From Dehalococcoidia bacterium (lineage in GTDB: Bacteria > Chloroflexota > Dehalococcoidia > Bin125): DNA of 64,000 bases. The notes beneath the pieces were generated by a model that was not told where the DNA came from, did no database searches, and saw nothing but the letters and a program-made list of their open reading frames with translations. Location of the stretch: contig JAJDYG010000040.1 in assembly GCA_022822855.1 (NCBI GenBank), positions 159,905 to 223,904 on the forward strand, given 5' to 3'. How positions within the stretch are numbered: the stretch's first letter is position 1; every line of letters starts with the position of its first letter. Position numbers and translations under genes: made by a program. Below are positions 8,084-59,435 of this stretch, piece by piece.

Positions 8084-9058
8084 ATGGCTTCCATCCTCGT
8101 AATCGGCGAAACCGACGACGCCGGCCTGACCGCCCCCACCCTCGAGTTGCTCGGCGCAGCCTCACGCCTCAGCGCCGACCTGGGCGGCGGCGTCGCCCTT
8201 GCACTGATTGGCTCGGGCCTCGCCGACGCCGCTGCCGCAGCCGGACCCGCCGGCGCCGACTCCGTCTACACCGCCGACGCCGACTCACTCGCCTCCTACC
8301 AGACCGACAGCTATCTGCCGGTCGCGCAAGGCATCGTTGAGCGGGACTCACCCTCTGTCGTGCTGATGTCGCAGTCCAGCATGGGCCGCGACCTCGCGCC
8401 GCGCCTGGCAACAAGACTCGGCTCCGCGGCGATCATGGACTCGCTCGGGCTCGAAGTCGACGGCGACCGGATCAAGGCCACGCGGAGTTGCTACGGCGGC
8501 AACGCGCGGCAGGTCGTGACCGTCCAGACTGACCCCCAGGTAATCACCGTCCGACCAAAGTCTCAGGACCCGCTCGAAGCCGACAGCTCCCGCTCGGCCG
8601 AGGTGATCTCTGTCGATGTTGCGGAACCCACGCTCCGCGCTCGCACAACAGGCAAGGAACAGGCAGAGGCCGACGGGATCCGCCTCGAAGACGCTGAGAT
8701 CGTCGTTTCAGGCGGTCGCGGTCTGGGCGGACCGGAAGCCTTCTCGGACCTCGAGCGCCTCGCCGGCGTGCTGACCGCCGCCGTCGGTTCATCGCGGGCC
8801 GCATGCGACCTCGGCTGGTACCCGCCCTCGCAGCAGGTCGGACTGACCGGAACGGTCGTCTCGCCCACGCTTTACGTGGCGATCGCCATTTCGGGCGCCA
8901 GCCAGCACATGGCAGGCTGTGGCGGCTCGAAGAACATCGTCGCGATCAACAAGGACCCCGACGCCCCAATCTTCAGCTTCTCCCGCTTCGGCATCGTCGA
9001 CGACTATAAGAAGGTCCTCCCGGCCCTCGAGTCCGCCTTCGCCGAGGCGCTCGATTAG
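8084..9058 (+). CDS. etfA: Electron transfer flavoprotein alpha subunit
   Basis: [50 protein letters not shown] motifs. Confidence 0.95.
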
Positions 9059-33872: not shown

Positions 33873-33954
33873 GGGGTTGATGGTATGTGAAAGAGTGTTC
33901 GGAGTTTGTATCGTGGTTGGCGGTTGGGGAGCCACAGGGAGTCCCCCTTTGTCT

Positions 33955-34112
33955 CCGCATCCCCTGATCAAGTCAGGGCAGGCAAGTGCGAGGCAGGCGT
34001 TCGGCGTCTCCCCCACGCACCCCCCCGTCATTCCCGCGCAGACGGGAATCCCGCTCCATTCCCTCTCCCCCGCCGCCAGCGGGGGGAGATGTCCCGTTGT
34101 GACAGAGGGGGG
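33955..34112. repeat. Mixed REP cluster: nested TCAAG palindromes, dRS3-like GTCATTCCCGCG-N-GGGAATC, CTCCCCC family
   Basis: CCGCATC[CCCTGATCAAGTCAGGGCAGGC]AAGTGCGAGGCAGGC; GTCATTCCCGCGCAGACGGGAATC; CTCTCCCCCGCCGCCAGCGGGGGGAGATGTCCCGTTGTGACAGAGGGGGG. Confidence 0.8.
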
Positions 34113-34166
34113 CGCCCCAACCTATGCGACAATCCAACACAGGAACGCCGCACAGGACGACGAAGT

Positions 34167-37542: not shown

Positions 37543-40500
37543 TCAGTGCCAGTCGTGGCTGCTGGGCAAGGAGATGTCGGCGCCGATGGCTTCGACTCGC
37601 TCGGCGGCGATGTTGGTCGTGCCGTCCCAGCGGTCGATCCGGCCCGAGAGCAGGATGATCTGATTGGACAGCGCCCGCCGGCTGCGAGCGAACACCTGAG
37701 GTGAGATGACGGCCTGGACGTCGCCGGTCTCATCCTCGATCGTGACGAAGACCATCCCCCCCGCGCCTTGCGGGTGCTGGCGCGCGATCGGCCAACCGGC
37801 GACGCGGATGCGTTCGCCGTCTCTGGCGCCGTAGGTATCGGCCGTCGTGCGCACGCCCGCGTCGAGCCTGGGCCGGATGAACTCCATCACGTGGCCGCGG
37901 GGGTAGATGCCGAGCGCACGGTACTCGCTGACCATCTTCTGATAGTCGCTGATGTCCTCGAATCGCGGCGGCGCGTCCTCGCCGATGATCGGGAAGGCGC
38001 GCTGTCCGTTGCGAGCGGGACGAATCGAGAGTCCCGCCTCCCAGAGCGCGGCGCGGCGGTTGGGAGTGAGCGTGTCGAACGCGCCCGCCTCGATGAGCGA
38101 ACGGACAGCCTGCGGCTTGAGTCCGGTGCGACGCACGAGCTCGCCCGCGTCGGCGTACGGGCCGCCACGCTCGCGCTCCTCAACGATCAATCGCGCTGAC
38201 TCGGAGCCGATGTCTTTGACCATGCCCAGGCCCAGGCGGGCCGCGCCATCCTCCGGGGAGCAGCGGATCTGGCTGCAATTGATGCAGGGATTGAGGAACG
38301 GCACGCCGAACCGGCGCGCGTCCTGTTTCAACGCCTCCAGCGGATAGAAGCCCATCGGCTGTTGGTTGAGCAACGAGACGAAGAACTCCAGTGGGTAGTA
38401 ACACTTGAGCCAGGCAGCCTGGTAGGCAGTGATCGCAAAGGCGTGCGAGTGCGACTCGGGGAACATGTAATGCCCGTTGATCTTGGCGAAGATGCGCTCA
38501 GCGGTATCCGCCGGGACGTCGTTCGCGCTGGCGCCCTCGAGGAAGCGCTTGAGGTGCGCCGCGATCAGATGCGCGTTGTTGGGCTTGGCGAAGGCGCGGC
38601 GCACCTCATCGGCCTCGGCCGCAGTCATCCCGGCCACGTCCATGATGAGCTGCACGACCTGCTCCTGCCAGACGATGATGCCGTAGCCACGCTTCAACGC
38701 GCGTTCCTCCAGCGGGTGGTCGTACTCCCACTCGGCCCCGTGTCGGTAGCGCTCGACGAACTGGCTGACGGCGCTGCCCTGGGTGCCCACGCCGGGCCGG
38801 ATCAGCGCGACCTGGTAGGCCAGATCCCGCAGGTTGCGCGACTTGAGCCGCTGACCCATCTTGAGCTGGGCCGGCGACTGGAGCAGGAAGACGCCCTTCG
38901 CCCGGCCCTCGTTGATCAGGTCGTAGACTCCATCGTCCTCGGGACTGATCTGGCTCAGGTCGGGCCGCAGGCCTTCGCGCTGTTCGATCAGGTCGAGCGC
39001 TTCCTCGAGCTGGTCGAGTACAGGCAACGAGAGCAAGTCGATCTTGGCGAAGTTGGCGTCCGCCACGCTGTCCTTGTTCCAGTCCATGATGTAGCGGCCG
39101 GTGATCGCGCCGGCCCGCACCGGAACCATTTCCGGAATCGGCGAGTCGCTCAAGATCATTCCGCCCACGTGCTGGCCGAGTCCGCGCGGCGCGTCGATCA
39201 GCTGGGGCGCGAGCGTGATGAGGTCGCGCCAGCCGTACTCTTCGACCTTGTCTCGGAATGCGGGCAGTTGCTCCATCTGCTCACGCAGATCGCCCCCGCC
39301 GCGCGAGTGCAGATGCTCCGACAACGATCGCAGATCGTCCGGCAGCAGGCCCAGCGCCTTGCCCAGATCCTGGATGGCGCCCTTCAGCGAGTAGGTCGAG
39401 ATCGCCCCGGCCAGGACGGCGTAGTTACGACCGAAGTGTTCATGCACTCGCCGGATCAGTTCCTCGCGCAGCTCGCGGGGGAAGTCGAGGTCAATGTCCG
39501 GCAGCGAAGTCATGTCGTCCGGCAAGAAGCGCTCCAGCGAGAGATTCCACTTGAGCGGATCGATGTGACTGATCCCGATCAGGTAGCCGACCAGCAACGC
39601 GACCGAAGAACCGCGACCGCGTCCGGGCGGGCGCTGCTCCAGCGGCGTCTCCGGTTCGATCAGGCCGCGCTCTTCCATGATGCCCCGGGCCAGTTGCACG
39701 ATCTCGCGGTAGAGCAGCAGGAACCCGGCTAGTTCGTGTCGCTCGATTAGGCGGAACTCTTCGTCCAGACGTTGCTTGACCTCCTCGGTGACAACGCCGT
39801 AGCGCCGCGCAGCGGCTTCCTCGCAGAGACGCCGGAGGTATGTCTCGGGCACATAGCGCAGCGGCACCGGCGGATCAGGCAGGGTGTAGCCAAGGTCGGC
39901 GTCGAGATTGAAGGAGCACTGCTCGGCGATGCGTTGGGTATTGCAGAGCGCTTCGGGGAGGTCGGCGAAGAGCTGCGCCATCTCCGCCTCGGACTTGAGG
40001 TGCAGATGGTGGTTCGGATGAAGATGGCGCAGCGCCTGATCGAGCGTGGTGTTGTGTTTCGCGGCGACCAGCGCCTGTTGCAGGCGGTGGCGCTCGGGCG
40101 CGTGGTAGTGCGCGTTATTCGTGGCTACGAGCTGTGCGCCGACCTCACGGCCCAGCGAGACCAGCTCGCGATTCCGCTCGCTGTCGCCGCGCAGGAAGTT
40201 CTGTTGCAGCTCGACGTAGACCGAGTCCGCGCCGTACCACTCCCGATAGCTCCCAAGTAAGGCGCGCGCTTCTGCGCGGCATCCCTCCAGGACGAGCCGA
40301 GAGAGCGGTCCGTCGCGGCCACCGCTGAGCAGGACGAGACCTCCAGCATGAGCGGCCAGGTGCGCAGGATCGAGTTTCGGTTCGCGCCGATCGACCTCGT
40401 TGGCCAGCGTGAACAGCCGCGAGAGGTTGGCATAACCTGCGCGTGTTTTGGTCAGCAAGACGAGGCGGGAGCCGTCCGTCAGGGTGAGTTCGCCGCCCGT

Positions 40501-40683
40501 GATCGGCTGGACCTCGAGGCTGTTGGCCAACCGCGCGAACTCCAGCGCGCCGCAGAGGTTGGTATCGGTCAGGGCGAGCGCCGGCATCCCGAACTCGGTC
40601 GCCTGCGTGAGGAGTTCGTGGACATGAGACGCGCCCAGGCCGAAAGAAAAAAAACTTTTCGCGTGCAGCTCGACGTAGGTCAT
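37543..40683 (-). CDS. dnaE2: Error-prone DNA polymerase III alpha subunit DnaE2/ImuC
   Basis: YVELHAKSFFSF PHP start, GRGS, PDIDLDF, GQHVGG, KIDLLSL, FPESHSHAFA, NQQPMGFY, OB-fold end; ATG overlaps the imuB stop. Confidence 0.95.
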   Translation of the reverse strand: MTYVELHAKSFFSFGLGASHVHELLTQATEFGMPALALTDTNLCGALEFARLANSLEVQPITGGELTLTDGSRLVLLTKTRAGYANLSRLFTLANEVDRREPKLDPAHLAAHAGGLVLLSGGRDGPLSRLVLEGCRAEARALLGSYREWYGADSVYVELQQNFLRGDSERNRELVSLGREVGAQLVATNNAHYHAPERHRLQQALVAAKHNTTLDQALRHLHPNHHLHLKSEAEMAQLFADLPEALCNTQRIAEQCSFNLDADLGYTLPDPPVPLRYVPETYLRRLCEEAAARRYGVVTEEVKQRLDEEFRLIERHELAGFLLLYREIVQLARGIMEERGLIEPETPLEQRPPGRGRGSSVALLVGYLIGISHIDPLKWNLSLERFLPDDMTSLPDIDLDFPRELREELIRRVHEHFGRNYAVLAGAISTYSLKGAIQDLGKALGLLPDDLRSLSEHLHSRGGGDLREQMEQLPAFRDKVEEYGWRDLITLAPQLIDAPRGLGQHVGGMILSDSPIPEMVPVRAGAITGRYIMDWNKDSVADANFAKIDLLSLPVLDQLEEALDLIEQREGLRPDLSQISPEDDGVYDLINEGRAKGVFLLQSPAQLKMGQRLKSRNLRDLAYQVALIRPGVGTQGSAVSQFVERYRHGAEWEYDHPLEERALKRGYGIIVWQEQVVQLIMDVAGMTAAEADEVRRAFAKPNNAHLIAAHLKRFLEGASANDVPADTAERIFAKINGHYMFPESHSHAFAITAYQAAWLKCYYPLEFFVSLLNQQPMGFYPLEALKQDARRFGVPFLNPCINCSQIRCSPEDGAARLGLGMVKDIGSESARLIVEERERGGPYADAGELVRRTGLKPQAVRSLIEAGAFDTLTPNRRAALWEAGLSIRPARNGQRAFPIIGEDAPPRFEDISDYQKMVSEYRALGIYPRGHVMEFIRPRLDAGVRTTADTYGARDGERIRVAGWPIARQHPQGAGGMVFVTIEDETGDVQAVISPQVFARSRRALSNQIILLSGRIDRWDGTTNIAAERVEAIGADISLPSSHDWH

Positions 40684-42149
40684 GCCGCCGCGCCCTGCTG
40701 GTACCAGCGGTCTTCGCGCTGGTCGCGAAAAAGTGTGAGCTGGCTCCCATCCGCCTGGCTGACCCGGTAGTAGGAGCGCGTCACGGGCGTTTGCCGCCAC
40801 CAGAGGTCGAAGCTCCATTGATCCTCGATCCGCGTCACTTCGCGCCAGCGCTCGCCGATCCGAACCGCGCGTGGTTCCCGCGCAGGCCCCTCGCGGACTG
40901 CGACGCTGTCTGGCGTCGTCAACGGTTGCATGCCGTCGTCGGCCGACGGATCGATCGAGACCTGTACCGTGCGCTGCTCCGGGACAGGATGCCAGGGCGC
41001 GACCTCGACCAGGCGGCGGAGCGAGCGCTTGCCGTTCAGCCGCGCCTGGAGCCGCCGTTCGGTCTCCAGCAGGCGCTGCTCGCGGTCGTGGCGCAGATCG
41101 GGGAAGAAGGAGGCTTGCACTCCAGCCGCGCCGCTGAGGTTGGTCAGCGTGAGTGTCATCGCTTCGACCGGCGCTCGCGGGTGCTCAGTTTCCAGCCGCG
41201 CCTTGATGATCTCGGCGGCCCGTCGCCAGTGGCCGGCGCGATTCTTGAAATGGAAGGCTCGCTCCCAGGCCGGCGCGTCTTCGAGCTCGCAGACCAGCGT
41301 CGCCGTCCCCGCATAACGGCCCTGCATCCGCGGCTGCGCATAGGCGCGCTGGAGCAAGGTCTCCACCGCTGCCCGCAGGAGCTCGAGCGTGGTCGACTCG
41401 ACGGGCAGCGAGAGCGTCTCCGTGATCGGCTCCATGTACGCCCGAGGCTGCAGCGGACGCTCGTCGATCCCGTTGGCCAGCTCCCAGACGCGACGCCCCT
41501 CGTGTCCGAAGCGGTCGAGCAATGCGTGCGCTTCCTGCGCTGCGACATCGCCCAGTGTGTTAAGTCCGAGCTGGTGCAACTCTTCCCGCAGCCCGGACGA
41601 GCAGGGAAGCAGATCGATCGAGTGCGGCGCGAGAAACGCCGCCGGAGCGCGAGACACTGTGGTCACGCCCGATGAGCGGCGCACCCGAGCCGCGACGAAC
41701 GAGATGAACTTGTTCGCTGCGATCCCGATACGCGGCTCAAGGTGATCGGGCACGGAGCGAAGCAGAGCGTCGTACAACGGCGCCTCGCCGCCGTGCATCG
41801 CGGCCAACCCGCCCAGCCCCAGATAGGCGACGCCCAGTTCCTCGCCTTCAACCCGATCACTCACCTGTTCAAGAGCACCGAGCATCTGCTCGAACATCTG
41901 CCGATAGTGCGGCTCGTCCGCCTCCAGGACCACGGCATTGGGCTGGATCGAGAGCGCCTGCCGCAGATTCCGGCCCAGCGTCCGACACGACGCCGCCGGG
42001 AGATGATCGATCACCACCGCCTGGTCAGCGGAACGATCCACGATCACGCCGGCGCGATCCACCAACTCCGGCCGCCGCGCCAACTCCAGGCGCGCGCGTA
42101 AATGCGTGACCAGGACACAGGAGATCGGCGAAGTCTGTTTCATCTGCAT
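40680..42149 (-). CDS. imuB: ImuB-like inactive Y-family polymerase with a C-terminal WW-containing extension
   Basis: Y-family fold motifs (RIGIAANKF.S..AA, LHQLGL.TLGDV) without the catalytic DxD; C-terminal DQWSFDLWW...RSYYRV...LFRD. Confidence 0.85.
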   Translation of the reverse strand: MQMKQTSPISCVLVTHLRARLELARRPELVDRAGVIVDRSADQAVVIDHLPAASCRTLGRNLRQALSIQPNAVVLEADEPHYRQMFEQMLGALEQVSDRVEGEELGVAYLGLGGLAAMHGGEAPLYDALLRSVPDHLEPRIGIAANKFISFVAARVRRSSGVTTVSRAPAAFLAPHSIDLLPCSSGLREELHQLGLNTLGDVAAQEAHALLDRFGHEGRRVWELANGIDERPLQPRAYMEPITETLSLPVESTTLELLRAAVETLLQRAYAQPRMQGRYAGTATLVCELEDAPAWERAFHFKNRAGHWRRAAEIIKARLETEHPRAPVEAMTLTLTNLSGAAGVQASFFPDLRHDREQRLLETERRLQARLNGKRSLRRLVEVAPWHPVPEQRTVQVSIDPSADDGMQPLTTPDSVAVREGPAREPRAVRIGERWREVTRIEDQWSFDLWWRQTPVTRSYYRVSQADGSQLTLFRDQREDRWYQQGAAA

Positions 42150-42191: not shown

Positions 42192-42302
42192 CTTTATGTA
42201 TAGAGCCTCTCACTCGCCCTCTCACTCGCAACGCGACAGACGATGAATCATCTCCCCTATCCTGATCCTCTGAGATTGTGATTCCAGCGAGTGGGGTGAG
42301 CC

Positions 42303-43418
42303 ATGCCCGTCGAATTCCTCGGCATGATCGGCGTCAAGCCGTCCGAATCCAACGCCGCCATGCACATCATCGGCGGCGGCATCGACCACGATTACCTCTG
42401 TCGATTCACCAAAGCCCACGAAGACTCCGACTTCGACGGCGTCCTTGTCGGCTACACCTCCGCCTCCGCCGACGGTCTCCACGTCGCCCAGGCCGCCGCC
42501 GCCTGCTCGGACCGGATCAAGTTCCTCATCGCCCACCGACCAGGGTTCGTCGCCCCGACCCTCGCCGCGCGCAAGTTCTCTACCCTCGACTTCTTCACCA
42601 ACGGTCGCGTCTCAGTCCACATCATCACCGGCGGACACGACGTCGAGCAGCGCCGCGACGGCGACTGGAAGACCCACGACGAGCGTTACCGACGCACCGA
42701 CGAATACCTCAGCATTATGCGCCGTACCTGGGAGCACGACGCTCACGGGCGCGAGCCGTTCGACTTCGAGGGCGAGTTCTACCAGGTCGTCGGACAGAAT
42801 CCCGAGGTCGCGCCGGTCCAGCCGGGCGGCATCCCCCTCTACTTCGGCGGCGCATCCGACATCGCCTTCGAAATCGGCGTCAAGCACGCCGACGTCTACA
42901 TGATGTGGGGCGAACCCCGCGCCTCGATCGCCTCAACCATCGAACGCGTCCACGAGGGCGCTGCCAAGCACGGCCGCAAGCCCAGACTCTCCGTGTCCTT
43001 CCGCCCGATCATCGCCCCGACCGAGGAGCAGGCCTGGGAAAAGGCCCACAACTACCTCGCCGCCGTGCAGAAGCTGGCCAAGCAACCGCTCGACTTCCGG
43101 CCCCAGTCGCGAGGTTCGCAGCGGCTGCTCGAGTTCGCCGCCAAGGGCGAAATCCACGACGAGCGCCTCTGGATGCCGATCGCCGAAGCCAGTGGCGCCG
43201 CCGGCAACAGCACCGCGCTCGTCGGCACGCCCGAGCAGGTTGCCGAAGTCCTGCTCAAGTACATCGACCTGGGTGTATCGACGATCCTGATCCGCGGCTT
43301 CGAACCGCTGCCCGACGCGATCGACTACGGCCAGGAACTCATCCCGATGGTCAAGCAGGAAGTCGCCCGCCGCGACGCCGAAGCCGAGCGTCAGGACGCT
43401 GCCGCAGTCGCGGACTGA
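42303..43418 (+). CDS. LLM-class flavin-dependent monooxygenase (SsuD/alkanesulfonate monooxygenase-like)
   Basis: FLIAHRPGF, GRVSVHIITGG, RYRRTDEYL, PLYFGGAS, ALVGTPEQVA. Confidence 0.92.
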   Translation: MPVEFLGMIGVKPSESNAAMHIIGGGIDHDYLCRFTKAHEDSDFDGVLVGYTSASADGLHVAQAAAACSDRIKFLIAHRPGFVAPTLAARKFSTLDFFTNGRVSVHIITGGHDVEQRRDGDWKTHDERYRRTDEYLSIMRRTWEHDAHGREPFDFEGEFYQVVGQNPEVAPVQPGGIPLYFGGASDIAFEIGVKHADVYMMWGEPRASIASTIERVHEGAAKHGRKPRLSVSFRPIIAPTEEQAWEKAHNYLAAVQKLAKQPLDFRPQSRGSQRLLEFAAKGEIHDERLWMPIAEASGAAGNSTALVGTPEQVAEVLLKYIDLGVSTILIRGFEPLPDAIDYGQELIPMVKQEVARRDAEAERQDAAAVAD

Positions 43419-43420
43419 TC

Positions 43421-44551
43421 ATGAACGACGCCGAACGCCGAATCCGCGCCTACGAGGAAATGGGCGACCATCGCACTGGCCGCGAGGCGGACAACCACGC
43501 GACCTGGTGGATGACTGAGGAACTGCACAAGGTCGGCGTCGACGCCGACTGGCAGACCTGGCGCTTTCCCCGTGTCGAAATCCACGATGCGTCAGTCCGC
43601 TTCGGCGGCTGGGACATTCCCGCCGTTCCGACCTTCGATTGCACCTTCACCGATCACAACGGGGTGACCGGCGTCCTGCGCCGAGACAACGGCCCGGGCA
43701 TCGTCGTCTGGGAATTCGCGCCCGACGATCAGGAACGCATGGCCGCCGGCATCTACACCTCCTTCGAACTCGCCCGCGCCGACGGCGTTGACGGAATCAT
43801 CATGATCATGGGCGATCCCGACGGTTATCCGGTGGTCCGCAACGCCGAGCGCCCGCTCGATCCAATCGACCTGCCCGTCCTGCAAGTCGCTCCAATGGAC
43901 GCCGGCCCGATCCTGGACGCCATCGGCTCCGAGGCGACGATGATCGTGGACGGCGGCCGTGTCGACGCGCCTGCAGATAACGTCGTCGCGACGATTCCGG
44001 GTACTGATCCTGACGCCGCACCGGTCACGCTGATGACGCCCAAGTCCGGTTGGTACACCTGCGCCGCCGAGCGCGGCGGCGGCATTGCCATCTGGATGGA
44101 AATCGCTGGCCGAGTCGCCGCCAGTCCCGGCCGCCGACCCCTCAACCTCGTCGCCTCAAGCGGACACGAACTCCACCACCTCGGCCTCGATCACTACATC
44201 AGCGAGTTGGGAGACGCCGCTCACGAAGTCCACGCCTGGATGCACCTCGGAGCCTCAATCGGCTCCCGCAACGGACAACCCAGCTACGCCGCCTCCGACG
44301 ACGAGCTTTTCGATGTCGCGACCAAAGCGCTGACCAAGCAAGGCCTCGAGCGTCGAGCCTTCCCGGTCGGCAACGCGGGATTCGGAGAAGCGCGAAACAT
44401 CGGAGAGATCAACGGCCGCTTCGCCTCCTTCCTCGGAGGCCACCCCTATTTCCACAGCCCGCTCGACACCTACGACCGCTGCGTCGACCCGGAATCCTTG
44501 GCCAAGCACACCGACGCCGCCGAGCAAATCGTTCGCTACATGCTCACCTAA
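43421..44551 (+). CDS. PA-domain / M28 peptidase-like protein with atypical metal ligands
   Basis: PA-like insert, NVVATIPG, ERGGG, SGHE, HLGA, YFHSPLD; starts 2 nt after the LLM stop. Confidence 0.7.
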   Translation: MNDAERRIRAYEEMGDHRTGREADNHATWWMTEELHKVGVDADWQTWRFPRVEIHDASVRFGGWDIPAVPTFDCTFTDHNGVTGVLRRDNGPGIVVWEFAPDDQERMAAGIYTSFELARADGVDGIIMIMGDPDGYPVVRNAERPLDPIDLPVLQVAPMDAGPILDAIGSEATMIVDGGRVDAPADNVVATIPGTDPDAAPVTLMTPKSGWYTCAAERGGGIAIWMEIAGRVAASPGRRPLNLVASSGHELHHLGLDHYISELGDAAHEVHAWMHLGASIGSRNGQPSYAASDDELFDVATKALTKQGLERRAFPVGNAGFGEARNIGEINGRFASFLGGHPYFHSPLDTYDRCVDPESLAKHTDAAEQIVRYMLT

Positions 44552-47875: not shown

Positions 47876-48970
47876 CTAAACCGGAATCTTCTCAACTTCC
47901 TCTTCGGGAGCGATCCCGGCCCACTTGCGCAGTTCCTCGTTCAGCCGATCCTCCCGATCGCCGAGGTGACACTGCCGCAGATAGCCGAGATAGGTTTCGA
48001 CTTGCTCGCGACGCAGCTCGGCTACGTCGACCATCGCCTCTTCCGCGCCCTCGCGGCCATCGCCCATGACCACGGCGAGCGCGCTGTAGAGCGTGTCGTC
48101 GCCGTCCTTGGCCAGGTACCACTCGGCCTTGTTCATGTAACGGTGAATCTCTTCCCGGCGCACCGGCTCCTTCAGCATCAGGTAGCGCATGTGGTCAACG
48201 AAGTAGGCCAAATGCCGTTCGATGTCCTTCTGGCAGAGTTCGTAGATCGAGCGCTCCGCCTCGGTCTGGGCGAGCTGTTCACCGTGGCGCAGCAGCGCCA
48301 GCAGCATCGAGTCATGCATGATCGACGCGACGCAGAATTCGCTGAAGGTGTACGACTGGGTCAGCGGCAGGAACTTCCAGTTGCGGCCGCCGCGGCCAAG
48401 ACCGCCGCCGTTCGCCAGCGCTCGCTTGCGCCAGACCTCGTACAGCCGGGCGCCGTCGAACACGACGGTGCCGAGGAACAGTTTCACCTCGATGTAGCCG
48501 TAGGAAATCTCCTGCAGCCAGCGACCCGTGGTCTGTGCCTTGGTCCAGCCATACTCCGACATCAACGTCGCGATCTGGCAAACTGCGCGCTCAAGATCGG
48601 AGCCGATCGGCTCCAGCGTGTCCCAGGGAATGTCGGCCGATGAGTTCCAGCGATCGGCGATCGCGTCCTCGTAGAGACCGGCGCAGAGGTCCGACCAGAC
48701 TTCGGCCTTGTTGAAGATCGAGTAGCCCATCTGCTCGGTGCGAGTGTCGGGAATCGCACCGCGCGGAATCTCAGTGTTGTTTTGCCAGACTTCGGGCACC
48801 TCGCCGTAGACGTCGACGTTCAGGTACTCAAACCGCAACCCGCCATTCTCCGGAGTGGCCTGCTCTTTGGCCTTCACGCCCCAATGCACAGGGGCGTCCA
48901 ACCAGTCCGACGGCAGGCCAGACTCTTCGAGTCGTTTCTTCGCGGCCGCGACGACATCGCTGTCAGGCAT
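47876..48970 (-). CDS. Ferritin-like protein with degenerate di-iron ligands (beta-like subunit)
   Basis: Aligns along its full length with 49043..50110 (WGV, YG..P, PRGA, DIPWDTL, RKRALANGGGL) but has DGARL and DIERH in place of DEARH and DESRH. Confidence 0.85.
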   Translation of the reverse strand: MPDSDVVAAAKKRLEESGLPSDWLDAPVHWGVKAKEQATPENGGLRFEYLNVDVYGEVPEVWQNNTEIPRGAIPDTRTEQMGYSIFNKAEVWSDLCAGLYEDAIADRWNSSADIPWDTLEPIGSDLERAVCQIATLMSEYGWTKAQTTGRWLQEISYGYIEVKLFLGTVVFDGARLYEVWRKRALANGGGLGRGGRNWKFLPLTQSYTFSEFCVASIMHDSMLLALLRHGEQLAQTEAERSIYELCQKDIERHLAYFVDHMRYLMLKEPVRREEIHRYMNKAEWYLAKDGDDTLYSALAVVMGDGREGAEEAMVDVAELRREQVETYLGYLRQCHLGDREDRLNEELRKWAGIAPEEEVEKIPV

Positions 48971-48987
48971 GGTGATTCTCCTCCGCA

Positions 48988-49020
48988 GAAAAAAGCGGCG
49001 CGGGCTGCAACCCGCGCCGC
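48988..49020 (-). terminator. Intrinsic terminator-like hairpin between the two ferritin-like genes
   Basis: Minus strand reads GCGGCGCGGG TTGCAG CCCGCGCCGC TTTTTTCT, immediately before the GGAGGAG RBS of the downstream gene. Confidence 0.6.
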
Positions 49021-49042
49021 CTCCGAGATCCGATGAGAGATC

Positions 49043-50110
49043 CTAGTTTTCGTCGAGTGCTCCCGACAGCGCCGGATGCAGACGCCCGGTCTCGAGACGG
49101 CCGCCGAGGCCAGCGACGTCGAGCCGGTGCAGGTACTCGAGCACCTGCTTGCGGCGCACGTGCCAGAACAGACGCCAGCCCTCGTCCACATCGCCGTCGC
49201 CGAGCAGATAGACCAGCGCGCCGGCGAGGCCCGGGTTGGCCTGGTCGGGGTCGACCAGCGTGTCCTCGAACATGTCGAGCGTCCAGTGGACTTCCTCGGC
49301 CTTGTCGGGGTCGTTCTCGAGCGTGTACTTGAGGTGAGTGACGCCGTACGCGACGTGGCGCGACTCGTCCTGCGCGGCCAGGCGGAAGATGCGCTTCTCT
49401 GCCTCGTTGTGCGCGATCAGCTCGCCCAGGCGGAAGAGCGACTGGACGAAGCCCTCGCCGAGGATGTGCAGCATCGACGACATCTGAGTGAAGTCTTCGG
49501 CTTCGAGGATCTGGCGCAGACCGCCGCCGCCGCCCTGCAGCAGCAGACCGCCGCCGTTGGCCAGCGCGCGCTTGCGGAAGACATCGGTGTGCCGCGCTTC
49601 GTCCATCACCTGCGACATCAGGAAGAGTCCCGACTCGAAGTGGTCGGCGGCGATGCGCGGCAGCCACTTGCCCGGCACGTCGCCGGCGATGAACTCAACC
49701 TCGGTCAGCGAGGTGCAGAGCTGCGCCATCGCGCGCTCGATGTCCTCGGGCAGTTCGTCCAGCGTGTCCCAGGGAATGTCGGTCGCCGACGACCACTGCC
49801 GCGAGACCGCTTCGTCGTACAGCAGCGCGGCCGAGTCGGAGAAGGTCTCAGTTGCGTCGCCCAGCACCCAGGGGGTCATCCGCGGTGTCGCGCCCTCAGG
49901 CGCCGCAGCGCCGCGAGGTCGCGCCGAGCTGTCCTCGGAGGTGGCAGGAATGTCCCCATACAGGGACTTGTTGATCTGCTGCAGAGTCAGACCCTTGCGC
50001 CCGGGTTCGGCGCTCACGCCCCACTCGGTGTCCAGGTTGAGCCAGGACAGGTCCAACTCCGGAACCTCCGGCTCAAGGCGCATCTCTTCCAACTTGTCAA
50101 CGGTGACCAT
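49043..50110 (-). CDS. Ferritin-like di-iron carboxylate protein (alpha-like subunit)
   Basis: Complete ligand set: TEVE, DEARH, GEG, DESRH; GAGGAG RBS before ATG at 50110. Confidence 0.88.
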   Translation of the reverse strand: MVTVDKLEEMRLEPEVPELDLSWLNLDTEWGVSAEPGRKGLTLQQINKSLYGDIPATSEDSSARPRGAAAPEGATPRMTPWVLGDATETFSDSAALLYDEAVSRQWSSATDIPWDTLDELPEDIERAMAQLCTSLTEVEFIAGDVPGKWLPRIAADHFESGLFLMSQVMDEARHTDVFRKRALANGGGLLLQGGGGGLRQILEAEDFTQMSSMLHILGEGFVQSLFRLGELIAHNEAEKRIFRLAAQDESRHVAYGVTHLKYTLENDPDKAEEVHWTLDMFEDTLVDPDQANPGLAGALVYLLGDGDVDEGWRLFWHVRRKQVLEYLHRLDVAGLGGRLETGRLHPALSGALDEN

Positions 50111-50320
50111 CGTTCGACTCCTCAGACAATCGCGAACCGTCCCGCAGAATGCACGAACGGCCAACGCCGTACGGGCAACTGTATATTCGGAAACAGGGTA
50201 AGGGGTCAGCGAGCGGCTTGTCGAGGGTCGTGGAGGGTGTATGTCCTTCCAGAAATCGAACCTCCGCTCGTGGTGACGGGTTGCTTGGCGGGACGGGAAG
50301 CGGAATCAGGAGCGGTAGCC

Positions 50321-50584
50321 ATGACGACATTGCCGAGCGTCACCTTCAACGAGCCGGGTGACATTCTCTACGTCGAGCTGGAAGAGTCGTCGGTTGCCAA
50401 GACTCGAGCCTATGGCGATGATCGGCTGGTTGATTTCGGCAGCGACGGGCAGGTAATCGGGGCCGAGTTCATCGGTATTGCCAGTTCTGTGGATCTGCGC
50501 GGCCTCCCGGAAAGTGAGCGCCTTCGAGACGCAATCACCTCGCGTGGCAACCGGAAACTGGCGGTTTTGGTCGACCCGGTCTAG
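50321..50584 (+). CDS. DUF2283-like antitoxin (87 aa)
   Basis: DILYVEL...LVDF..DGQVIGAEFI motif; AGGAG RBS. Confidence 0.75.
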   Translation: MTTLPSVTFNEPGDILYVELEESSVAKTRAYGDDRLVDFGSDGQVIGAEFIGIASSVDLRGLPESERLRDAITSRGNRKLAVLVDPV

Positions 50585-50662
50585 GTCTCTCAATGGCGCG
50601 GTGTTGCGCGGCACAGGCGACATGGGCACTCACAAGACCGGGCCGACCAGCCGTGTAGGCGC

Positions 50663-52528: not shown

Positions 52529-52697
52529 TGCGTTCTCCAAATCAAACTGAGCCTAACAGCGGATCGCCGCGATCTCGCTGCGCCGTCCGCTCGGGTCCAG
52601 CCGTCGAGTCAGGCGTTGCTCGTTCAACCCGCTGAAGCGTCGGATAGGATTGGGACGAACTTCCCGACAGTCCCACTGCCCCCCAGGAGACCGCTCT

Positions 52698-53588
52698 ATG
52701 TCCCTTCCAACCTTCGAGAATGTCCTGCTCGACCGCACCGGTACCGACGATCGGATCGGCGTGGTCACGCTCAACCGGCCCGAGAAGATGAATGCGCTCT
52801 CGCAGGAACTGATCTACGACTTCCGCGACGCGCTCGAGTACTTCGAGGCCGACGACGATGTCCGCGTGCTGATCGTCAAGGGCGCCGGACGCACCTTCTC
52901 GGCCGGCTACGACCTGACTCCGGCCGGCGGCTACGGCGCCGACGCCGTCCACCGCCGCTTCCGCACCGTCGACGACGACGGCAACCGTCTGATCATGGGT
53001 ATCCGCGGCGGCATGGCCCGCGTCACCGACATCTGGATGTACTTCTGGAACATGCAGAAGGTGACCATTGCCCAGCTTCACGGCTACGCGATTGCGGGCG
53101 GCTTCGAGCTGTCGATGATGGCCGACCTCGTGGTCGCCGCCGAGGACACGCAGATCGGCCACCCCGGCCTGCGCTTCGCCGGCTCGCGCACCTCTGCGAT
53201 TCTGCCCCTGCTGACCAACATGCGCAAGGCCAAGGAGCTCTTCTACACCGGCGACCCGATCCGCGCGACCGAGGCGGCCGAGCTCAACCTGATCAACTAC
53301 GCGGTTCCGAAAGACGAGTTGGAAGAGAAGACGCTCGCCCTCGCCGAGCGCGTCTCCAACCTGCCCGCCGACCACCTGGCCCAACTCAAGGTCCACGTCA
53401 ACCGCTTCTACGAGAACATGGGCATCTACTCCTCGCTGCGCTCCTCGACCGACCTCGACGCGGTCGGCACGTTCACGAGTCAGCACTACGAGTGGTCGCG
53501 CCGGATGCGAGACGAAGGCCTCAAGGGAGCCCTCGCCTGGCGAGACGGCCCCTTCGGCGACTACTCCCAGGCCCCGCGCAACCGGTAG
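52698..53588 (+). CDS. Enoyl-CoA hydratase/isomerase family protein
   Basis: TLNRPEKMNA, FSAGYDL, AGGFEL; second Glu position replaced (HPGLRF); AGGAG RBS. Confidence 0.9.
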   Translation: MSLPTFENVLLDRTGTDDRIGVVTLNRPEKMNALSQELIYDFRDALEYFEADDDVRVLIVKGAGRTFSAGYDLTPAGGYGADAVHRRFRTVDDDGNRLIMGIRGGMARVTDIWMYFWNMQKVTIAQLHGYAIAGGFELSMMADLVVAAEDTQIGHPGLRFAGSRTSAILPLLTNMRKAKELFYTGDPIRATEAAELNLINYAVPKDELEEKTLALAERVSNLPADHLAQLKVHVNRFYENMGIYSSLRSSTDLDAVGTFTSQHYEWSRRMRDEGLKGALAWRDGPFGDYSQAPRNR

Positions 53589-53591
53589 GGA

Positions 53592-54341
53592 ATGCCCACA
53601 TTCATCGGCCTCGACCTCGCCTGGTCTCCGAACAAAGAGAGCGGTATCTGCTGGTTGACTGGCCACTCGTCGGAGAGTCTGAAGTGCGAGCGGCTCACGG
53701 CACAGGTCTCCGACATGGCCGCGGTTGCCGAGGAGATCGAGCGAGTTGAGGGCTCGGTCGTCGTCGCCATCGACGCGCCGGTGCTGTACAGCCCCGAACG
53801 CAGCGTTGAGCGCGAGATTGGCCGGCGATTTGGCAAGTTCAAGGCGTCTGCCCACTCCCCTCATCCCCACGTCAGGGCGGGTCGCCGGGCTGGGATCGAC
53901 CTGGGCGAAGCCCTGGTCAGGCGCGGCTTCACGCTGGACCCGGCGCGACTGTTGTGCGGCGATCGAACCGGTCGTACAGCCATTGAGGTCTTTCCTCACA
54001 CCATCCATGTTCGCCTCTTCGACCTGACCGAACGCATTCTTTACAAGAAGGGTCGCGTTGCACAGAAGCGAGCTGGACTGTTGCAGTACCAGGGGTACCT
54101 GCGAGGACTGATCGAGGCACAGGCCCCCAACTTGTTCGAGCACCCCGATGTTGACCGCGCCCTAGGCCCTGCGACCGCCCGGGCTGCCAGGGGCAAGGGC
54201 ATCAAGCGGCTCGACGACACTCTTGACGGGCTGACCTGCGCCCTCGCCGGCTGGCTGATCTGGAAGCAACCTGAGCGCTGGGAGATGATCGGCGACCTGA
54301 ACGGCTACATTGTCGCGCCGCGGGAGGCTCAGGCTGGATAG
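53592..54341 (+). CDS. DUF429-like predicted RNase H-fold nuclease
   Basis: FIGLDLAW, VAIDAP, IEVFPH, DTLDGL.CA motifs. Confidence 0.8.
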   Translation: MPTFIGLDLAWSPNKESGICWLTGHSSESLKCERLTAQVSDMAAVAEEIERVEGSVVVAIDAPVLYSPERSVEREIGRRFGKFKASAHSPHPHVRAGRRAGIDLGEALVRRGFTLDPARLLCGDRTGRTAIEVFPHTIHVRLFDLTERILYKKGRVAQKRAGLLQYQGYLRGLIEAQAPNLFEHPDVDRALGPATARAARGKGIKRLDDTLDGLTCALAGWLIWKQPERWEMIGDLNGYIVAPREAQAG

Positions 54342-56630: not shown

Positions 56631-59435
56631 TCACAACCGCTGATTCGACACAACCGGCTCCGACGCCAAGAGCGTCCTGAGCACTGCCAAGTCGGGCAAG
56701 TCCAGAATCTCTGAGAGACCATCGTCCAGGGCTTTGCGGGCGGGGCAATCGGCCATTGCGGGTAGCCGTTCGAAGGTCGCATCCGACAAGTCATCGAACA
56801 GCGTTTCCAGTGCCCTGAGTTCGGAATCGGACAGTGATCGAGTGTCTAGTACTGGCAGCGTCCGTAGATCAGCTTTCTTCATCTGGACCCAGGGTCCCCG
56901 CGTCGTGTTTCTCGTACCGAGCAGTGCTGACAAGCCGATGCTGCTGTTCATCCAAAGAGCGAGGGCCGCTTCCTGGGCTCTCTCGGCAAGCTTGACAGGC
57001 CAAAACGCGTTTGAGAGCACGCGGACGTTAGTGCGCATCGCGACGATCCGTGTTGTGTTCAGCCAAAGCCGCTGGCCGACAAGCAAGTTGGCCGCCTTTG
57101 GCCATAACTGGTCAAACGGCTTGAGGTTCCGCCCAGGTCGCGCCTCAACGAGCGGCACCAAGTACTTGTTGTGCTTACCCGTCAAGCCAGTCTGCTCATC
57201 GGTGTCGTGATTCTCGACCATCGGGTAGGCGGTTATGGCGTCGGTGCGTTCGAATCCGTCCGTCACATCACGGATGTCAGGGCCGATCTCTCCCAACCCA
57301 GCCAGTGCGCAGAGTGGCACATTTGTCGTCGTTGGCTCGCCTGGAATCCAGACTTCACCATCCTTGAGCAGCCGAAGCGCGCTTCGCGTCAAGTCCGCTC
57401 GCGCGAACTGAATGCCGCGCCATTGAGTGCCAGCGCAATCTGACTCGGAGATCGAAACCGCTTCGCCAACGTGCTGACCGTCTACGGACAACAAACCCAT
57501 GCCTGAGCCTTCCACGGGAGCCGGCGTTGTTGACGCGATCGCGTCGGCGACCCGACCGGCCTCGAAGACGCTGGGGCTGTTGCGCCAAAGGTTTACGAAT
57601 GTCGTCAGATGTTCGTCAGACTCATCTTCGATCCTCTTGCGGCGCGTTGCGATCAGCAGCGCTTCGGATAGGTCCGTGGAGTCCGAAAAATTCCATCGAG
57701 TCGGATCATGGGAGACGATTACAACGTCCAGCGTGAAGTCGCGCTCGATCAGAGTTCGCGTTTGCTGCCAAGACGAACCAGTACAAACGCTGATCGGTAG
57801 GACAAGGGCCAACCTACCCTCGCCCTCTCGCAGCTTCGGCGCGGCGGCGGCAACGAATGCCGCCCCTAATCCTGCTGTGGCGGTCGCTTGGCGGTTCTTG
57901 AGGCGCTTGGACAGTTCCTTGCGCAGCTTGGCGCGATCTGATTTTGGCAGGCTCCCGAACAGCAGGTTGCCGACGACCGACCGGGTGAACGGGGGATTCA
58001 TGATCGCGAGGTCGAGTTCGGGGAGTTTGGCGGTGACCCCTGCCTCAACGCCTTGCGGGCCTTCACCGCTGACTCGCTCCGCGCCCGGCGTAGGGATTTC
58101 CGGTGAGAGCGCGAACTGGACGGCAACCTCGTCCTCGCCGAGGAAGTCGAGCGAGCCGAGCGCGACCTTGCCGTCATCCGCGCCGTAGTCCATGACGTAG
58201 AGGTTCATGCGGTCGAACTCGATCTGCGGATTGAGCATGGCCAGGCTCGTGGCGGCGAAGTGGATGGCGGAGAGCTGCACGTCGTATCCGTGCAGGGCCT
58301 GCTCGACCATCGCCTTGTGCAGCTCGGCGGAGCGCTCGCCTCCGGCGGCTTCGTGTCGGCGCTCGGCCTCGGCGGCGACCGCCATGAGCAGCGTGCCGGT
58401 GCCGCAGGCGAGGTCGGCGACGCTGAGCGAGGCGGGAAACTCGTGGTCGGCCCAATCGACATTCGGCGGCCAATCCTCGAACACCAGACGCGCGAGCAGC
58501 GTCGCGGCGGGGACGGAGGTGTAGTAGGCGCCGGTGAACTTGGCGTCGGAAAGCAGCGTGTGAAACAGGCGGCCGGAGAGATCGTGACCCTCAACTTTGC
58601 TCGTCTGTTGGACGGCCTCGATCAGCGGAGCCATGGACTGGTGCTGGATTTCGTCCGGCGCGGCGCTGAGGATGTCCAGCAGTTCTGCGGCGAGTTGGAA
58701 GACGGGGATGTAATCGATCTCATCGCAGATGGTGAGCCAGGCGTCGCGAAACTCGACGACCGGGGACTTGAGCATCTCACCGAGTGTGGGGACATCGCCA
58801 TTGATGGCCGCGAGACGGTCCTGAAATGCGAGCGCGTTGAAGATGATCAGACAACCAATGCGCAGCGCGGCGGCGCGATCCTTCTCTTGGTCGGTCTGGG
58901 CGATGGCGTCGGCGATCCGCTTCGAGATCCGCGCGTGGTCACTGAGCGCTTTGGCCGACCGGTCGAGCGCGTACCCGACCGCTCCAGCCGCGACGATGAC
59001 GCGGTCGACGCCTTCGATTTCCAGCGGGAGCAGTCGCAGGTGGTCGGCGAGTTGGTCGACCGTGCCCTCGCGCAGCGGCGGGTCGGCGTAGGTCTGTTGG
59101 CGGGAGCTATGCAGGAACCACTGGAGGTTGAGGGTGTGTTCGAGTTCGTCGAGGATGTCCTCCTCTTGCTTGAGCCAGTCGGGGTAGAGGACGCCGACGC
59201 GGGCGATGGCGTCGGGGAAGTCGGTGAGTCGGTCGTTGAGTTGGTCGAGCAGGTCTGCGTGGCCGGACTCCCACTTGCATTCCAGCAGGACGAGTTCGCC
59301 GGTGGGGAGTTCGTATCGGATGTCGGGGGTGTCGCCTCGGCTGCGTCGCTCGGCGCGGGCGGGGATGCCTCGGGCTCGGAGGAGTTGCCCGAGGAGCGGG
59401 TTGACGGCTTCCTCGCGGGCGGTTTCAGAGGGCAT
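56631..59435 (-). CDS. Type IIG-like restriction-modification enzyme (PD-(D/E)XK nuclease, N6-adenine MTase, TRD)
   Basis: PD..LLECK, GAYYTSVPAA, DLACGTGTLL, MNPPF. Confidence 0.85.
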   Translation of the reverse strand: MPSETAREEAVNPLLGQLLRARGIPARAERRSRGDTPDIRYELPTGELVLLECKWESGHADLLDQLNDRLTDFPDAIARVGVLYPDWLKQEEDILDELEHTLNLQWFLHSSRQQTYADPPLREGTVDQLADHLRLLPLEIEGVDRVIVAAGAVGYALDRSAKALSDHARISKRIADAIAQTDQEKDRAAALRIGCLIIFNALAFQDRLAAINGDVPTLGEMLKSPVVEFRDAWLTICDEIDYIPVFQLAAELLDILSAAPDEIQHQSMAPLIEAVQQTSKVEGHDLSGRLFHTLLSDAKFTGAYYTSVPAATLLARLVFEDWPPNVDWADHEFPASLSVADLACGTGTLLMAVAAEAERRHEAAGGERSAELHKAMVEQALHGYDVQLSAIHFAATSLAMLNPQIEFDRMNLYVMDYGADDGKVALGSLDFLGEDEVAVQFALSPEIPTPGAERVSGEGPQGVEAGVTAKLPELDLAIMNPPFTRSVVGNLLFGSLPKSDRAKLRKELSKRLKNRQATATAGLGAAFVAAAAPKLREGEGRLALVLPISVCTGSSWQQTRTLIERDFTLDVVIVSHDPTRWNFSDSTDLSEALLIATRRKRIEDESDEHLTTFVNLWRNSPSVFEAGRVADAIASTTPAPVEGSGMGLLSVDGQHVGEAVSISESDCAGTQWRGIQFARADLTRSALRLLKDGEVWIPGEPTTTNVPLCALAGLGEIGPDIRDVTDGFERTDAITAYPMVENHDTDEQTGLTGKHNKYLVPLVEARPGRNLKPFDQLWPKAANLLVGQRLWLNTTRIVAMRTNVRVLSNAFWPVKLAERAQEAALALWMNSSIGLSALLGTRNTTRGPWVQMKKADLRTLPVLDTRSLSDSELRALETLFDDLSDATFERLPAMADCPARKALDDGLSEILDLPDLAVLRTLLASEPVVSNQRL

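What the first reader, a model, noticed from the sequence alone, without database searches (positions are those of the whole stretch)
47876..50110. Active + dead ferritin-like paralog pair: candidate undescribed alpha/beta di-iron oxygenase
The upstream gene has a full di-iron carboxylate ligand set (E, DEARH, E, DESRH). The downstream gene is a full-length paralog (shared WGV, YG..P, PRGA, DIPWDTL, RKRALANGGGL) with the ligands removed (DGARL, DIERH). Catalytic plus structural paralogs are how soluble methane/toluene monooxygenases and PaaA/PaaC are built (established), but these sequences do not look like MmoX, TmoA, PaaA, BoxB or NrdB, and no reductase, ferredoxin or coupling protein is adjacent. 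In a genome rich in CoA-ester chemistry, this is a plausible new acyl-CoA-dependent oxygenase, epoxidase or desaturase, possibly matured by the client-less CbbQ/NorD pair.
Basis: partly seen in the sequence, partly recalled or inferred. Interest (0 to 1): 0.8.

Follow-up and report, generated by a model that had tools for sequence, protein, structure and literature searches.

The report
Conserved active/dead R2-like protein pair
Two neighbouring genes encode a ferritin-like (ribonucleotide-reductase-R2-type) protein with a complete two-metal site and a sister copy that has lost that site. The pair is kept as a two-gene unit across Dehalococcoidia-type Chloroflexota, fits no characterised family, and its substrate is unknown.

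Summary
Gene A (49043-50110, minus strand, 355 aa) has all six metal ligands: E139, E171/H174, E219, E249/H252. Gene B (47876-48970, minus strand, 364 aa) is a full-length paralog (35% identity, E 6e-55) that keeps only H252.

The pair is not a local oddity. The same A-then-B tandem occurs in 41 of 87 loci examined, including the cultured Tepidiforma flava. Copies keep either 6 of 6 ligands or at most 2 of 6, with nothing in between. B is under strong purifying selection (dN/dS 0.11; A 0.08). The A/B split is ancient, and B subclades largely mirror A subclades.

Neither protein passes any Pfam or NCBIfam cut-off or clearly matches a PDB sequence. Predicted folds are closest to R2lox and RNR R2 (TM about 0.5-0.65), but the R2lox Tyr-Val cross-link residues and the R2 tyrosine are absent.

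No reductase, ferredoxin or effector gene is a conserved neighbour. The proposed links to acyl-CoA chemistry and to a CbbQ/NorD pair have no support.

Best reading: an uncharacterised R2-like O2-activating protein working as an A/B heterodimer, with a catalytic and a scaffold subunit. The heterodimer and the chemistry are inferred. The substrate is unknown.

The parts
49043..50110 (-). Gene A: 355-aa R2-like ferritin-fold protein with a complete dinuclear-metal ligand set (E139, E171, H174, E219, E249, H252). It also has the family-invariant second-sphere residues A142, F178, H215 and Q223.
   Evidence: AF2 model core (residues 90-355) has pLDDT about 85. Foldseek best hits are R2lox and RNR R2.
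47876..48970 (-). Gene B: 364-aa full-length paralog of A. The ligand positions read G, G, L, D, I, H, so only the last His is kept. The scaffold residues D170, R173, D248, R251 and the RKRALANGGGL loop are retained.
   Evidence: AF2 model pLDDT 91.7. Foldseek gives RNR R2 and R2lox. dN/dS 0.11.
50118..50123 (-). Shine-Dalgarno-like GAGGAG 8 nt upstream of the ATG of A
   Evidence: Read directly from the sequence
48978..48984 (-). Shine-Dalgarno-like GGAGGAG 8 nt upstream of the ATG of B
   Evidence: Read directly from the sequence
48989..49020 (-). Intergenic hairpin between A and B: a 10-bp all-G/C stem (GCGGCGCGGG / CCCGCGCCGC), loop TTGCAG, then T6. It looks like an intrinsic terminator or attenuator. 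It is specific to this lineage, so it is not part of the conserved unit.
   Evidence: MFE -38 kcal/mol, z = -3.5. It is not conserved in relatives, some of which have only a 6-nt gap.

Best explanation
A and B are the two subunits of an uncharacterised R2-type (ferritin-fold) metalloprotein found in Dehalococcoidia/Tepidiformia-type Chloroflexota.

A binds a carboxylate-bridged dinuclear centre (Fe/Fe or Mn/Fe) through four Glu and two His, and activates O2 there. B is a metal-free paralog that takes the place of the second protomer in the usual R2-type dimer. It would act as a scaffold, docking or substrate-binding subunit. This is analogous to Rnr4 next to Rnr2 in yeast RNR, or to the non-catalytic beta subunit and PaaC in multicomponent oxygenases.

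Electrons would come from a general cellular donor, because no dedicated reductase is linked. The substrate is unknown. A hydrophobic or lipid-like molecule is a guess by analogy with R2lox, ADO and the desaturases.

Shown: paralogy, the ligand pattern, the fold class, conservation of the tandem, and purifying selection on both genes. Inferred: metal binding, O2 chemistry and the heterodimer.
For: (1) All six ligands are invariant in the 85 ligand-complete homologues. A-specific second-sphere residues (A142, H215, Q223) are also invariant. The 45 B-type copies keep 0-2 of the 6 ligands, with no intermediates, and carry variable residues at E171 and E249.

(2) The A-then-B tandem, on one strand with gaps mostly of 3-230 nt, occurs in 41 of 87 loci examined. 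These include distant lineages (A about 52-57% identical to the window) and Tepidiforma flava.

(3) The NJ tree places all A copies in one clade. All B copies fall outside that clade, and B subclades largely repeat A subclades. Within-locus A-B identity is only 27-42%. This points to one ancient duplication, inherited together since.

(4) B is under strong purifying selection (median dN/dS 0.113; A 0.076). B has its own conserved residues and folds with high confidence (pLDDT 91.7).

(5) Both models match R2lox and RNR R2, which to my knowledge are dimers.

(6) 29 positions are conserved in both A and B, including the R179-K-R-A-L-x-N-G-x-G-L189 loop and D248/R251. This fits a shared scaffold or interface.

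(7) No reductase, Rieske, ferredoxin or effector gene recurs among 89 neighbouring proteins of 26 pair loci.
Against: No physical or structural evidence for an A-B complex.

About half of the loci hold a ligand-complete A with no adjacent B. A-type proteins can therefore presumably work without a neighbouring B, perhaps as homodimers.

Some B-type genes (a longer form with an N-terminal extension) stand alone, followed by a conserved 145-aa protein. I could not test genome-wide co-occurrence of A and B.

Distance correlation between A and B is weak once close relatives are removed (r = 0.21).

Metal content and any oxygenase activity are untested. Gene context gives no hint of a substrate.
Confidence: 0.55

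Rival explanations
1. A is a self-sufficient homodimeric di-metal oxidase, as the singleton copies suggest. B is a separate, non-enzymatic protein that is only co-expressed with it, for example a metal-loading or assembly chaperone or a ligand-binding or carrier protein. It would not be a stoichiometric subunit.
For: Singleton ligand-complete copies are common and sit in unrelated housekeeping contexts, such as after hisD-hisC-hisB or divergent from a 2-oxoacid dehydrogenase operon. Solitary long B-type genes exist with their own small partner. In the window a terminator-like hairpin separates A and B.
Against: The tandem order is kept across deep divergence. Several lineages have gaps of only 3-9 nt, which suggests translational coupling. 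B keeps the whole R2 fold and the loop shared with A. The hairpin is not conserved.
Confidence: 0.2
2. One reading: an acyl-CoA-dependent epoxidase, oxygenase or desaturase of the PaaA/BoxB type, matured by the CbbQ/NorD-like pair elsewhere in the window.
For: The window holds much CoA-ester metabolism: two family III CoA-transferases, an enoyl-CoA hydratase, an AMP-binding ligase, an SDR and ETF-like genes. An RKR...NGGG loop could in principle bind a phosphate-bearing substrate (my inference).
Against: The CoA-transferase/SDR/MBL neighbours persist only in relatives with 87% or more identity in A. Among 89 neighbours of 26 pair loci, CoA_transf_3, AMP-binding and ECH each occur once. There is no Pfam hit to the PaaA/PaaC or phenol-hydroxylase families. 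The VWA protein is more than 33 kb away, and no AAA+/VWA gene neighbours the pair in any locus.
Confidence: 0.07
3. Not an oxygenase. The protein is related to metal homeostasis or redox sensing, for example a ferroxidase-type or Mn/Fe-binding protein, or a radical or cofactor generator for an unlinked partner. It may be under metal-dependent regulation.
For: In one clade of five loci a DtxR/MntR-like regulator is divergently transcribed from the pair. The fold is shared with the radical-generating R2 proteins. No substrate-related genes are linked.
Against: The regulator link is confined to one lineage. The invariant second-sphere residues (H215, Q223) and a 350-aa R2-like fold, rather than a cage-forming ferritin fold, suggest catalysis. 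There is F178 and no Tyr at the R2 radical position.
Confidence: 0.1
4. B is a degenerating duplicate with no function.
For: Loss of five of the six ligands.
Against: dN/dS is 0.11 across 15 relatives with dS of 0.7-0.9. The reading frame is intact in 45 B-type genes across the class. B has its own conserved residues and a confident fold.
Confidence: 0.01
5. The pair simply belongs to an already characterised family (R2lox or class I RNR beta).
For: The best fold matches are R2lox and R2. There are weak R2lox HMM hits of 27-34 bits, and an EARHxxVFR motif resembles the EEAKHTQVFR of R2lox.
Against: Scores are far below the R2lox cut-offs of 194-315 bits, and there is no PF00268 hit. PDB sequence E-values are 0.15 or worse. 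The Tyr-Val cross-link residues are absent and there is no R2 tyrosine. A conserved extra N-terminal region of about 90 aa is present. No NrdA-type neighbour was seen.
Confidence: 0.05

Closest known systems
[quoted passage not shown] M. tuberculosis Rv0233, Geobacillus GkR2loxI)
   Same: Best structural match for A (Foldseek E 1e-4, TM 0.5-0.65) and among the best for B. Same ligand set of four Glu plus two His. Phe at the position of the R2 radical tyrosine. Similar motif after the second ligand helix. A stand-alone gene without a dedicated reductase. The physiological function of R2lox is also unknown (PMC9314684).
   Different: Sequence similarity is marginal (27-34 bits against cut-offs of 194 or more). 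The Val and Tyr that form the R2lox ether cross-link are replaced by invariant A142 (or I141) and M/L214. A has an extra conserved N-terminal region of about 90 aa. It has a conserved ligand-less paralog next to it. To my knowledge R2lox is a homodimer.
Class I ribonucleotide reductase beta subunit, especially the yeast Rnr2-Rnr4 heterodimer
   Same: R2 fold. From established knowledge, yeast Rnr4 is an R2 paralog that lacks several metal ligands, pairs with the metal-binding Rnr2, and is needed for its folding and cofactor assembly. That is the same active-plus-dead logic.
   Different: No PF00268 hit. No radical Tyr (F178). No NrdA/R1 partner nearby. Bacterial rather than eukaryotic, and a separate family.
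Bacterial multicomponent monooxygenase hydroxylases (sMMO/toluene/phenol alpha-beta) and PaaA/PaaC
   Same: A catalytic di-iron subunit paired with a structurally related non-catalytic subunit (established knowledge). sMMO alpha appears among the weaker fold hits (TMq 0.43).
   Different: Those systems are encoded together with a reductase, an effector and sometimes a Rieske ferredoxin. None recurs here. The subunit sizes and sequences differ, and no Pfam hit was found.
VlmB-type azoxy synthase / 'protein 60' with ADO activity (PDB 8wvr, 6d9f)
   Same: Top PDB sequence hit for the A+B profile, though weak (E 0.17). The DEARHxxVFR-type motif matches. It also appears as a fold hit.
   Different: The match is not significant. 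These are actinobacterial secondary-metabolism enzymes, and no paired dead paralog is known to me.

Membership tests
Ferritin-like superfamily, R2-like branch | Helical bundle carrying two (D/E)ExxH motifs plus two further Glu, with a fold similar to R2, R2lox and BMM hydroxylases | tested here: met
   A has E139, DEARH, E219 and DESRH. The AF2 models are all-helical. Foldseek probability is 1.0 to R2lox and R2 for both proteins.
R2lox | Scores above the curated R2lox HMM cut-offs | tested here: not met
   NCBIfam NF006200 gives 26.9 bits for window A and 33.8 bits for T. flava A, against a cut-off of 194. B has no hit.
R2lox | Tyr-Val ether cross-link residues (Val three residues after ligand Glu 1; Tyr five residues before ligand Glu 3; PMC9314684) | tested here: not met
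   E139+3 is an invariant Ala (the neighbouring I141 is also invariant). E219-5 is Met or Leu. No Tyr lies in that helix turn. Positions were assigned by register from the ligands, not from a solved structure.
R2lox | Mn/Fe cofactor and a bound long-chain fatty-acid ligand | not testable with these tools
   Needs metal analysis and a crystal or MS study.
Class I RNR beta (NrdB/NrdF) | PF00268 membership, a radical Tyr four residues after the first His ligand, and a partnered NrdA/NrdE | tested here: not met
   No Pfam hit. F178 is invariant at that position. No RNR alpha was seen among the neighbours.
Bacterial multicomponent monooxygenase hydroxylase | A Phenol_Hydrox-type alpha and beta encoded together with a reductase and an effector protein | tested here: not met
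   No Pfam hit. None of these genes is in the window neighbourhood or recurs among 89 neighbours of 26 pair loci.
PaaA/PaaC phenylacetyl-CoA epoxidase | PF05138 membership and paaB/D/E neighbours | tested here: not met
   No Pfam hit at E <= 1. No such neighbours.
Active/dead heteromeric R2-type dimer (Rnr2-Rnr4-like logic) | A ligand-complete and a ligand-deficient paralog, both under selection and co-inherited | tested here: met
Active/dead heteromeric R2-type dimer (Rnr2-Rnr4-like logic) | A physical 1:1 complex of the two paralogs | not testable with these tools
No multimer predictor was available.

The most novel reading that the evidence does not exclude
The A/B pair founds a new class of heterodimeric R2-like Mn/Fe or Fe/Fe oxidases, confined to aerobic Dehalococcoidia/Tepidiformia. 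It would have its own active-site design (invariant His215 and Gln223) and a conserved N-terminal arm. It would carry out a core, non-operon-linked oxidation, for example of a lipid or cofactor, that no known di-iron family performs. In some lineages it would be assisted by a further unknown 145-aa protein.
Probability: 0.35. Interest if true: 0.7.

Novelty: new variant of a known kind. Interest (0 to 1): 0.55.

Why it matters
Di-metal carboxylate proteins of the R2/R2lox type perform some of the hardest oxidations in biology, and the physiological role of R2lox itself is still open.

This family is large and strongly conserved. It comprises 1159 clusters at 50% identity, at least 566 loci in species-representative genomes, and often several copies per genome. 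It has no annotation beyond 'ferritin-like domain-containing protein'. It also has an anciently fixed catalytic-plus-dead subunit arrangement.

A cultured host, Tepidiforma flava, carries the pair, which makes it experimentally tractable. Working it out would add a new branch to R2-like enzymology. It could also explain a widespread, unannotated O2-dependent function in Dehalococcoidia-type Chloroflexota.

Tried and rejected
- **Family and sequence searches.** Pfam and NCBIfam scans of A and B gave nothing above cut-off. PDB sequence searches with A and with an A+B profile gave only E >= 0.15.
- **Gene context.** I looked for a conserved reductase, ferredoxin or substrate pathway. Neighbours differ by lineage. 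They include response regulators, GGDEF/HD proteins, UPF0182 and a DtxR-like regulator in single clades, and hisDCB or 2-oxoacid dehydrogenase next to singletons. None recurs across lineages.
- **Linked-chain AF2 model.** I built an A + (GGGGS)6 + B construct with 13 paired rows (alignment A5).
- **Mirror-tree correlation.** It is high overall (r = 0.97) but driven by close relatives. It falls to r = 0.21 when A identity is below 70%. I rely on clade composition in the NJ tree instead.
- **Promoter and terminator scan.** The scan missed the obvious intergenic hairpin on the minus strand. I found it by reading the sequence and by folding. It is not conserved.
- **The 145-aa partner of long B-type genes.** It has no Pfam, NCBIfam or PDB hit and is absent from the window.
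- **Literature.** Searches for this family in Chloroflexi or Dehalococcoidia, and for R2lox heterodimers, found nothing relevant.
- **Genome-wide co-occurrence of A and B.** This could not be done. The single genome scan returned only the best 80 loci, nearly all chosen for their A-type match.
Full report
**What is there.** The finding's coordinates hold two minus-strand genes.
- A is 49043-50110 (355 aa). It starts at an ATG with GAGGAG 8 nt upstream.
- B is 47876-48970 (364 aa). It starts at an ATG with GGAGGAG 8 nt upstream.
- A has the classic four-Glu, two-His set of a carboxylate-bridged dinuclear site: E139, D170-E171-A-R-H174, E219, D248-E249-S-R-H252.
- B has G, D-G-A-R-L, D and D-I-E-R-H at the same columns, so only the last His survives.

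**Is it a known family?** No.
- Neither protein reaches any Pfam cut-off (best hit E 0.17).
- NCBIfam gives only fragmentary hits of A to R2-like ligand-binding oxidase models, 27 bits against a cut-off of 194. The Tepidiforma ortholog gives 34 bits.
- PDB sequence searches give E >= 0.15.
- Public names are only 'ferritin-like domain-containing protein' or 'hypothetical protein'.
- The AlphaFold2 models are helical. A has pLDDT 71 overall and about 85 for residues 90-355, with a low-confidence N-terminus. B has pLDDT 91.7.
- Foldseek places both nearest to R2lox and class I RNR R2, at probability 1.0, E 1e-4 to 1e-3 and TM 0.45-0.65. An ADO-like/VlmB-like protein and sMMO alpha lie further down the list.

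The family therefore sits in the R2-like branch of the ferritin-like superfamily but is not a member of R2lox or RNR beta.
- The residues that form the R2lox Tyr-Val cross-link (PMC9314684) are replaced by invariant Ala142 and Met/Leu214.
- The R2 radical-Tyr position is an invariant Phe178.
- Pfam finds no match to its RNR R2 family (PF00268).

**How widespread is it, and is the pair conserved?**
- A profile search finds 1159 clusters at 50% identity with E <= 1e-3, and 208 with E <= 1e-30.
- A scan of species-representative genomes finds at least 566 loci. All named ones are Chloroflexota MAGs, mostly labelled Dehalococcoidia, plus the cultured Tepidiforma flava YIM 72310.
- I called ORFs in the window and 86 fetched loci, searched them with the A profile, and read the six ligand columns.
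- The copies are bimodal. 85 have 6 of 6 ligands. 45 have 0-2 of 6. None is intermediate.
- In 41 loci a ligand-complete gene is followed on the same strand by a ligand-poor one. Gaps are mostly 3-230 nt, and several are only 3-9 nt.
- These tandems include lineages whose A is only about 52-57% identical to the window's, and T. flava (L077 5980-7032 and 7070-8278).
- In B-type proteins E171 and E249 are replaced by many different residues (G, A, Q, S, L, H... and L, I, R, K, S...). The A-specific invariant residues A142, H215 and Q223 are also lost.
- In contrast D170, R173, D248, R251 and the R179-K-R-A-L-x-N-G-x-G-L189 loop stay conserved in both.

**Evolution.**
- An NJ tree puts all ligand-complete sequences in one clade and all B-type sequences outside it. 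The B subclades largely repeat the A subclades.
- Within-locus A-B identity is always 27-42%.
- This indicates one ancient duplication followed by joint inheritance, not repeated local duplication.
- Among 15 close relatives, median dN/dS is 0.076 for A and 0.113 for B, at dS about 0.5-0.9.
- B evolves faster than A (mean pairwise identity 46% against 62%). That is usual for a non-catalytic partner.

**Complications.**
- About half the loci carry a ligand-complete gene alone. These sit in unrelated housekeeping contexts: after hisD-hisC-hisB in eight loci, divergent from a 2-oxoacid dehydrogenase operon, or elsewhere.
- Several genomes have more than one A-type locus. One locus has two ligand-complete copies in tandem (L071).
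- A longer B-type form, with an N-terminal extension of 50-110 aa, can stand alone. It is then followed by a conserved protein of about 145 aa with no detectable family. The same small gene follows the A-B pair in three loci. It is absent from the window.

So A-type proteins probably can act without an adjacent B, and the partnership may also work in trans. I could not test genome-wide co-occurrence.

- In the window the pair lies between an SBP_bac_5 gene on one side and MBL, SDR and CoA-transferase genes on the other.
- That arrangement is kept only in close relatives with 87% or more identity in A.
- Among 89 neighbours of 26 pair loci, no family occurs more than five times. The recurring ones (response regulator, GGDEF/HD, UPF0182, a DtxR/MntR-like repressor) are each confined to one lineage. 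No reductase, Rieske, ferredoxin or effector recurs.
- CoA-related families occur once each.
- The only VWA protein I located in the window is at 12293-15580, 33 kb away. Nothing of that kind neighbours the pair elsewhere.
- The acyl-CoA and CbbQ/NorD suggestions are therefore unsupported.

**Most likely mechanism.**
- A binds a dinuclear Fe/Fe or Mn/Fe centre and activates O2.
- B, which keeps the R2 fold but has no metal site, occupies the second position of the R2-type dimer as a scaffold or docking subunit. I rate this at 0.55.
- This mirrors yeast Rnr2-Rnr4 and the alpha/beta or PaaA/PaaC logic (established knowledge).
- The lack of a linked reductase resembles R2lox, ADO and the soluble desaturases, which use general electron donors.
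- Shown: paralogy, ligand pattern, fold class, operon conservation and selection.
- Inferred: metal binding, O2 chemistry and the heterodimer.
- The substrate is unknown.
- Rivals: A as a homodimer with B as a chaperone or carrier (0.2); a metal-homeostasis or radical-generator role (0.1); the acyl-CoA/CbbQ version (0.07); membership of a known family (0.05); a decaying copy (0.01).

**Local detail.** Between A and B the window has a 10-bp all-GC hairpin followed by T6 (48989-49020; MFE -38 kcal/mol, z -3.5). Relatives have either a 6-nt gap or other GC-rich palindromes at this spot. The hairpin is a lineage-specific insertion that may tune the A:B ratio, not a conserved part of the unit.

**Verdict.** This is a real, conserved and uncharacterised R2-like family with an anciently fixed active/dead paralog pair. 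It is a new variant of a known kind. It is moderately interesting and is testable in a cultured organism.

Noticed in passing
window 48989-49020 (minus strand); same intergenic spot in L007-L018: A terminator-like 10-bp GC hairpin plus T6 lies between A and B in the window. Relatives carry different GC-rich palindromes at the same spot: GCTCCCCC...GGGGGAGC, sometimes in two copies, in L010/L012/L014/L018, and GGGGCGACCC...GGGTCGCCCC in L007/L008/L013/L016. L001/L002/L017 have only a 6-nt gap. These look like REP-type repeat insertions.
   Followed up: partly
L005 9413-9856, L006 9241-9672, L081 2982-3425, L040 8335-8772, L049 8367-8801, L074 2897-3361: A conserved protein of about 145 aa (51-81% identical across loci; motifs FPSxEWF, TFEAF, HTLNTxD, FYRFNQ) lies immediately downstream of long B-type genes, and of A-B pairs in three loci. 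It has no Pfam, NCBIfam or PDB match and is not present in the window.
   Followed up: partly
proteins P0139-P0227 (e.g. P0142, P0146, P0190); L005 8001-9374: Many B-type homologues are 400-480 aa long. They carry an N-terminal extension made of one or two repeats of roughly 'IPE.L..KA...GWP..LV..ALA.GA', which gives a faint SinI hit. The window's B lacks this extension.
   Followed up: no
L038 4011-4718, L054 4809-5483, L062 4790-5515, L082 4876-5583, L086 3559-4266 (all minus strand): In one clade a DtxR/MntR-like metal-dependent repressor is divergently transcribed from the A-B pair, next to a conserved 513-aa protein. This hints at Fe/Mn-dependent regulation in that lineage only.
   Followed up: partly
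L026, L030, L046, L052, L053, L056, L057, L060 (upstream of the singleton A); L003/L004 7700-4400: One subclade of singleton ligand-complete copies always follows hisD-hisC-hisB on the same strand. Another subclade sits divergent from an E1alpha-E1beta-E2 2-oxoacid dehydrogenase operon.
   Followed up: partly
window 50306-50629 (minus strand): A 107-aa ORF lies in the 550-bp gap between the SBP_bac_5 gene and A. It has 36-39% identical counterparts at the same place in L007 and L016, so it may be a real small gene.
   Followed up: partly
window 37543-42149 (minus strand): A DnaE2-like error-prone Pol III alpha (1091 aa) is preceded by an ImuB-like Y-family protein (489 aa). This is a mutasome-type cassette.
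   Followed up: no
window 12293-15580 (+), 42278-44551 (+), 52542-54143 (-), 56631-59435 (-): Large ORFs with little or no family assignment: 1095 aa with only a C-terminal VWA domain, and 757, 533 and 934 aa with no Pfam hit.
   Followed up: no
window 33906-35609 (+): An N6/N4 DNA methylase fused to an HNH nuclease domain sits in a lower-GC stretch (about 61%).
   Followed up: no
window 4659-9058 (+): A 757-aa protein with CCG and 4Fe-4S dicluster domains lies directly upstream of two ORFs that look like electron-transfer flavoprotein beta and alpha. The ETF assignment comes from reading the N-terminal sequence only and was not scanned.
   Followed up: no
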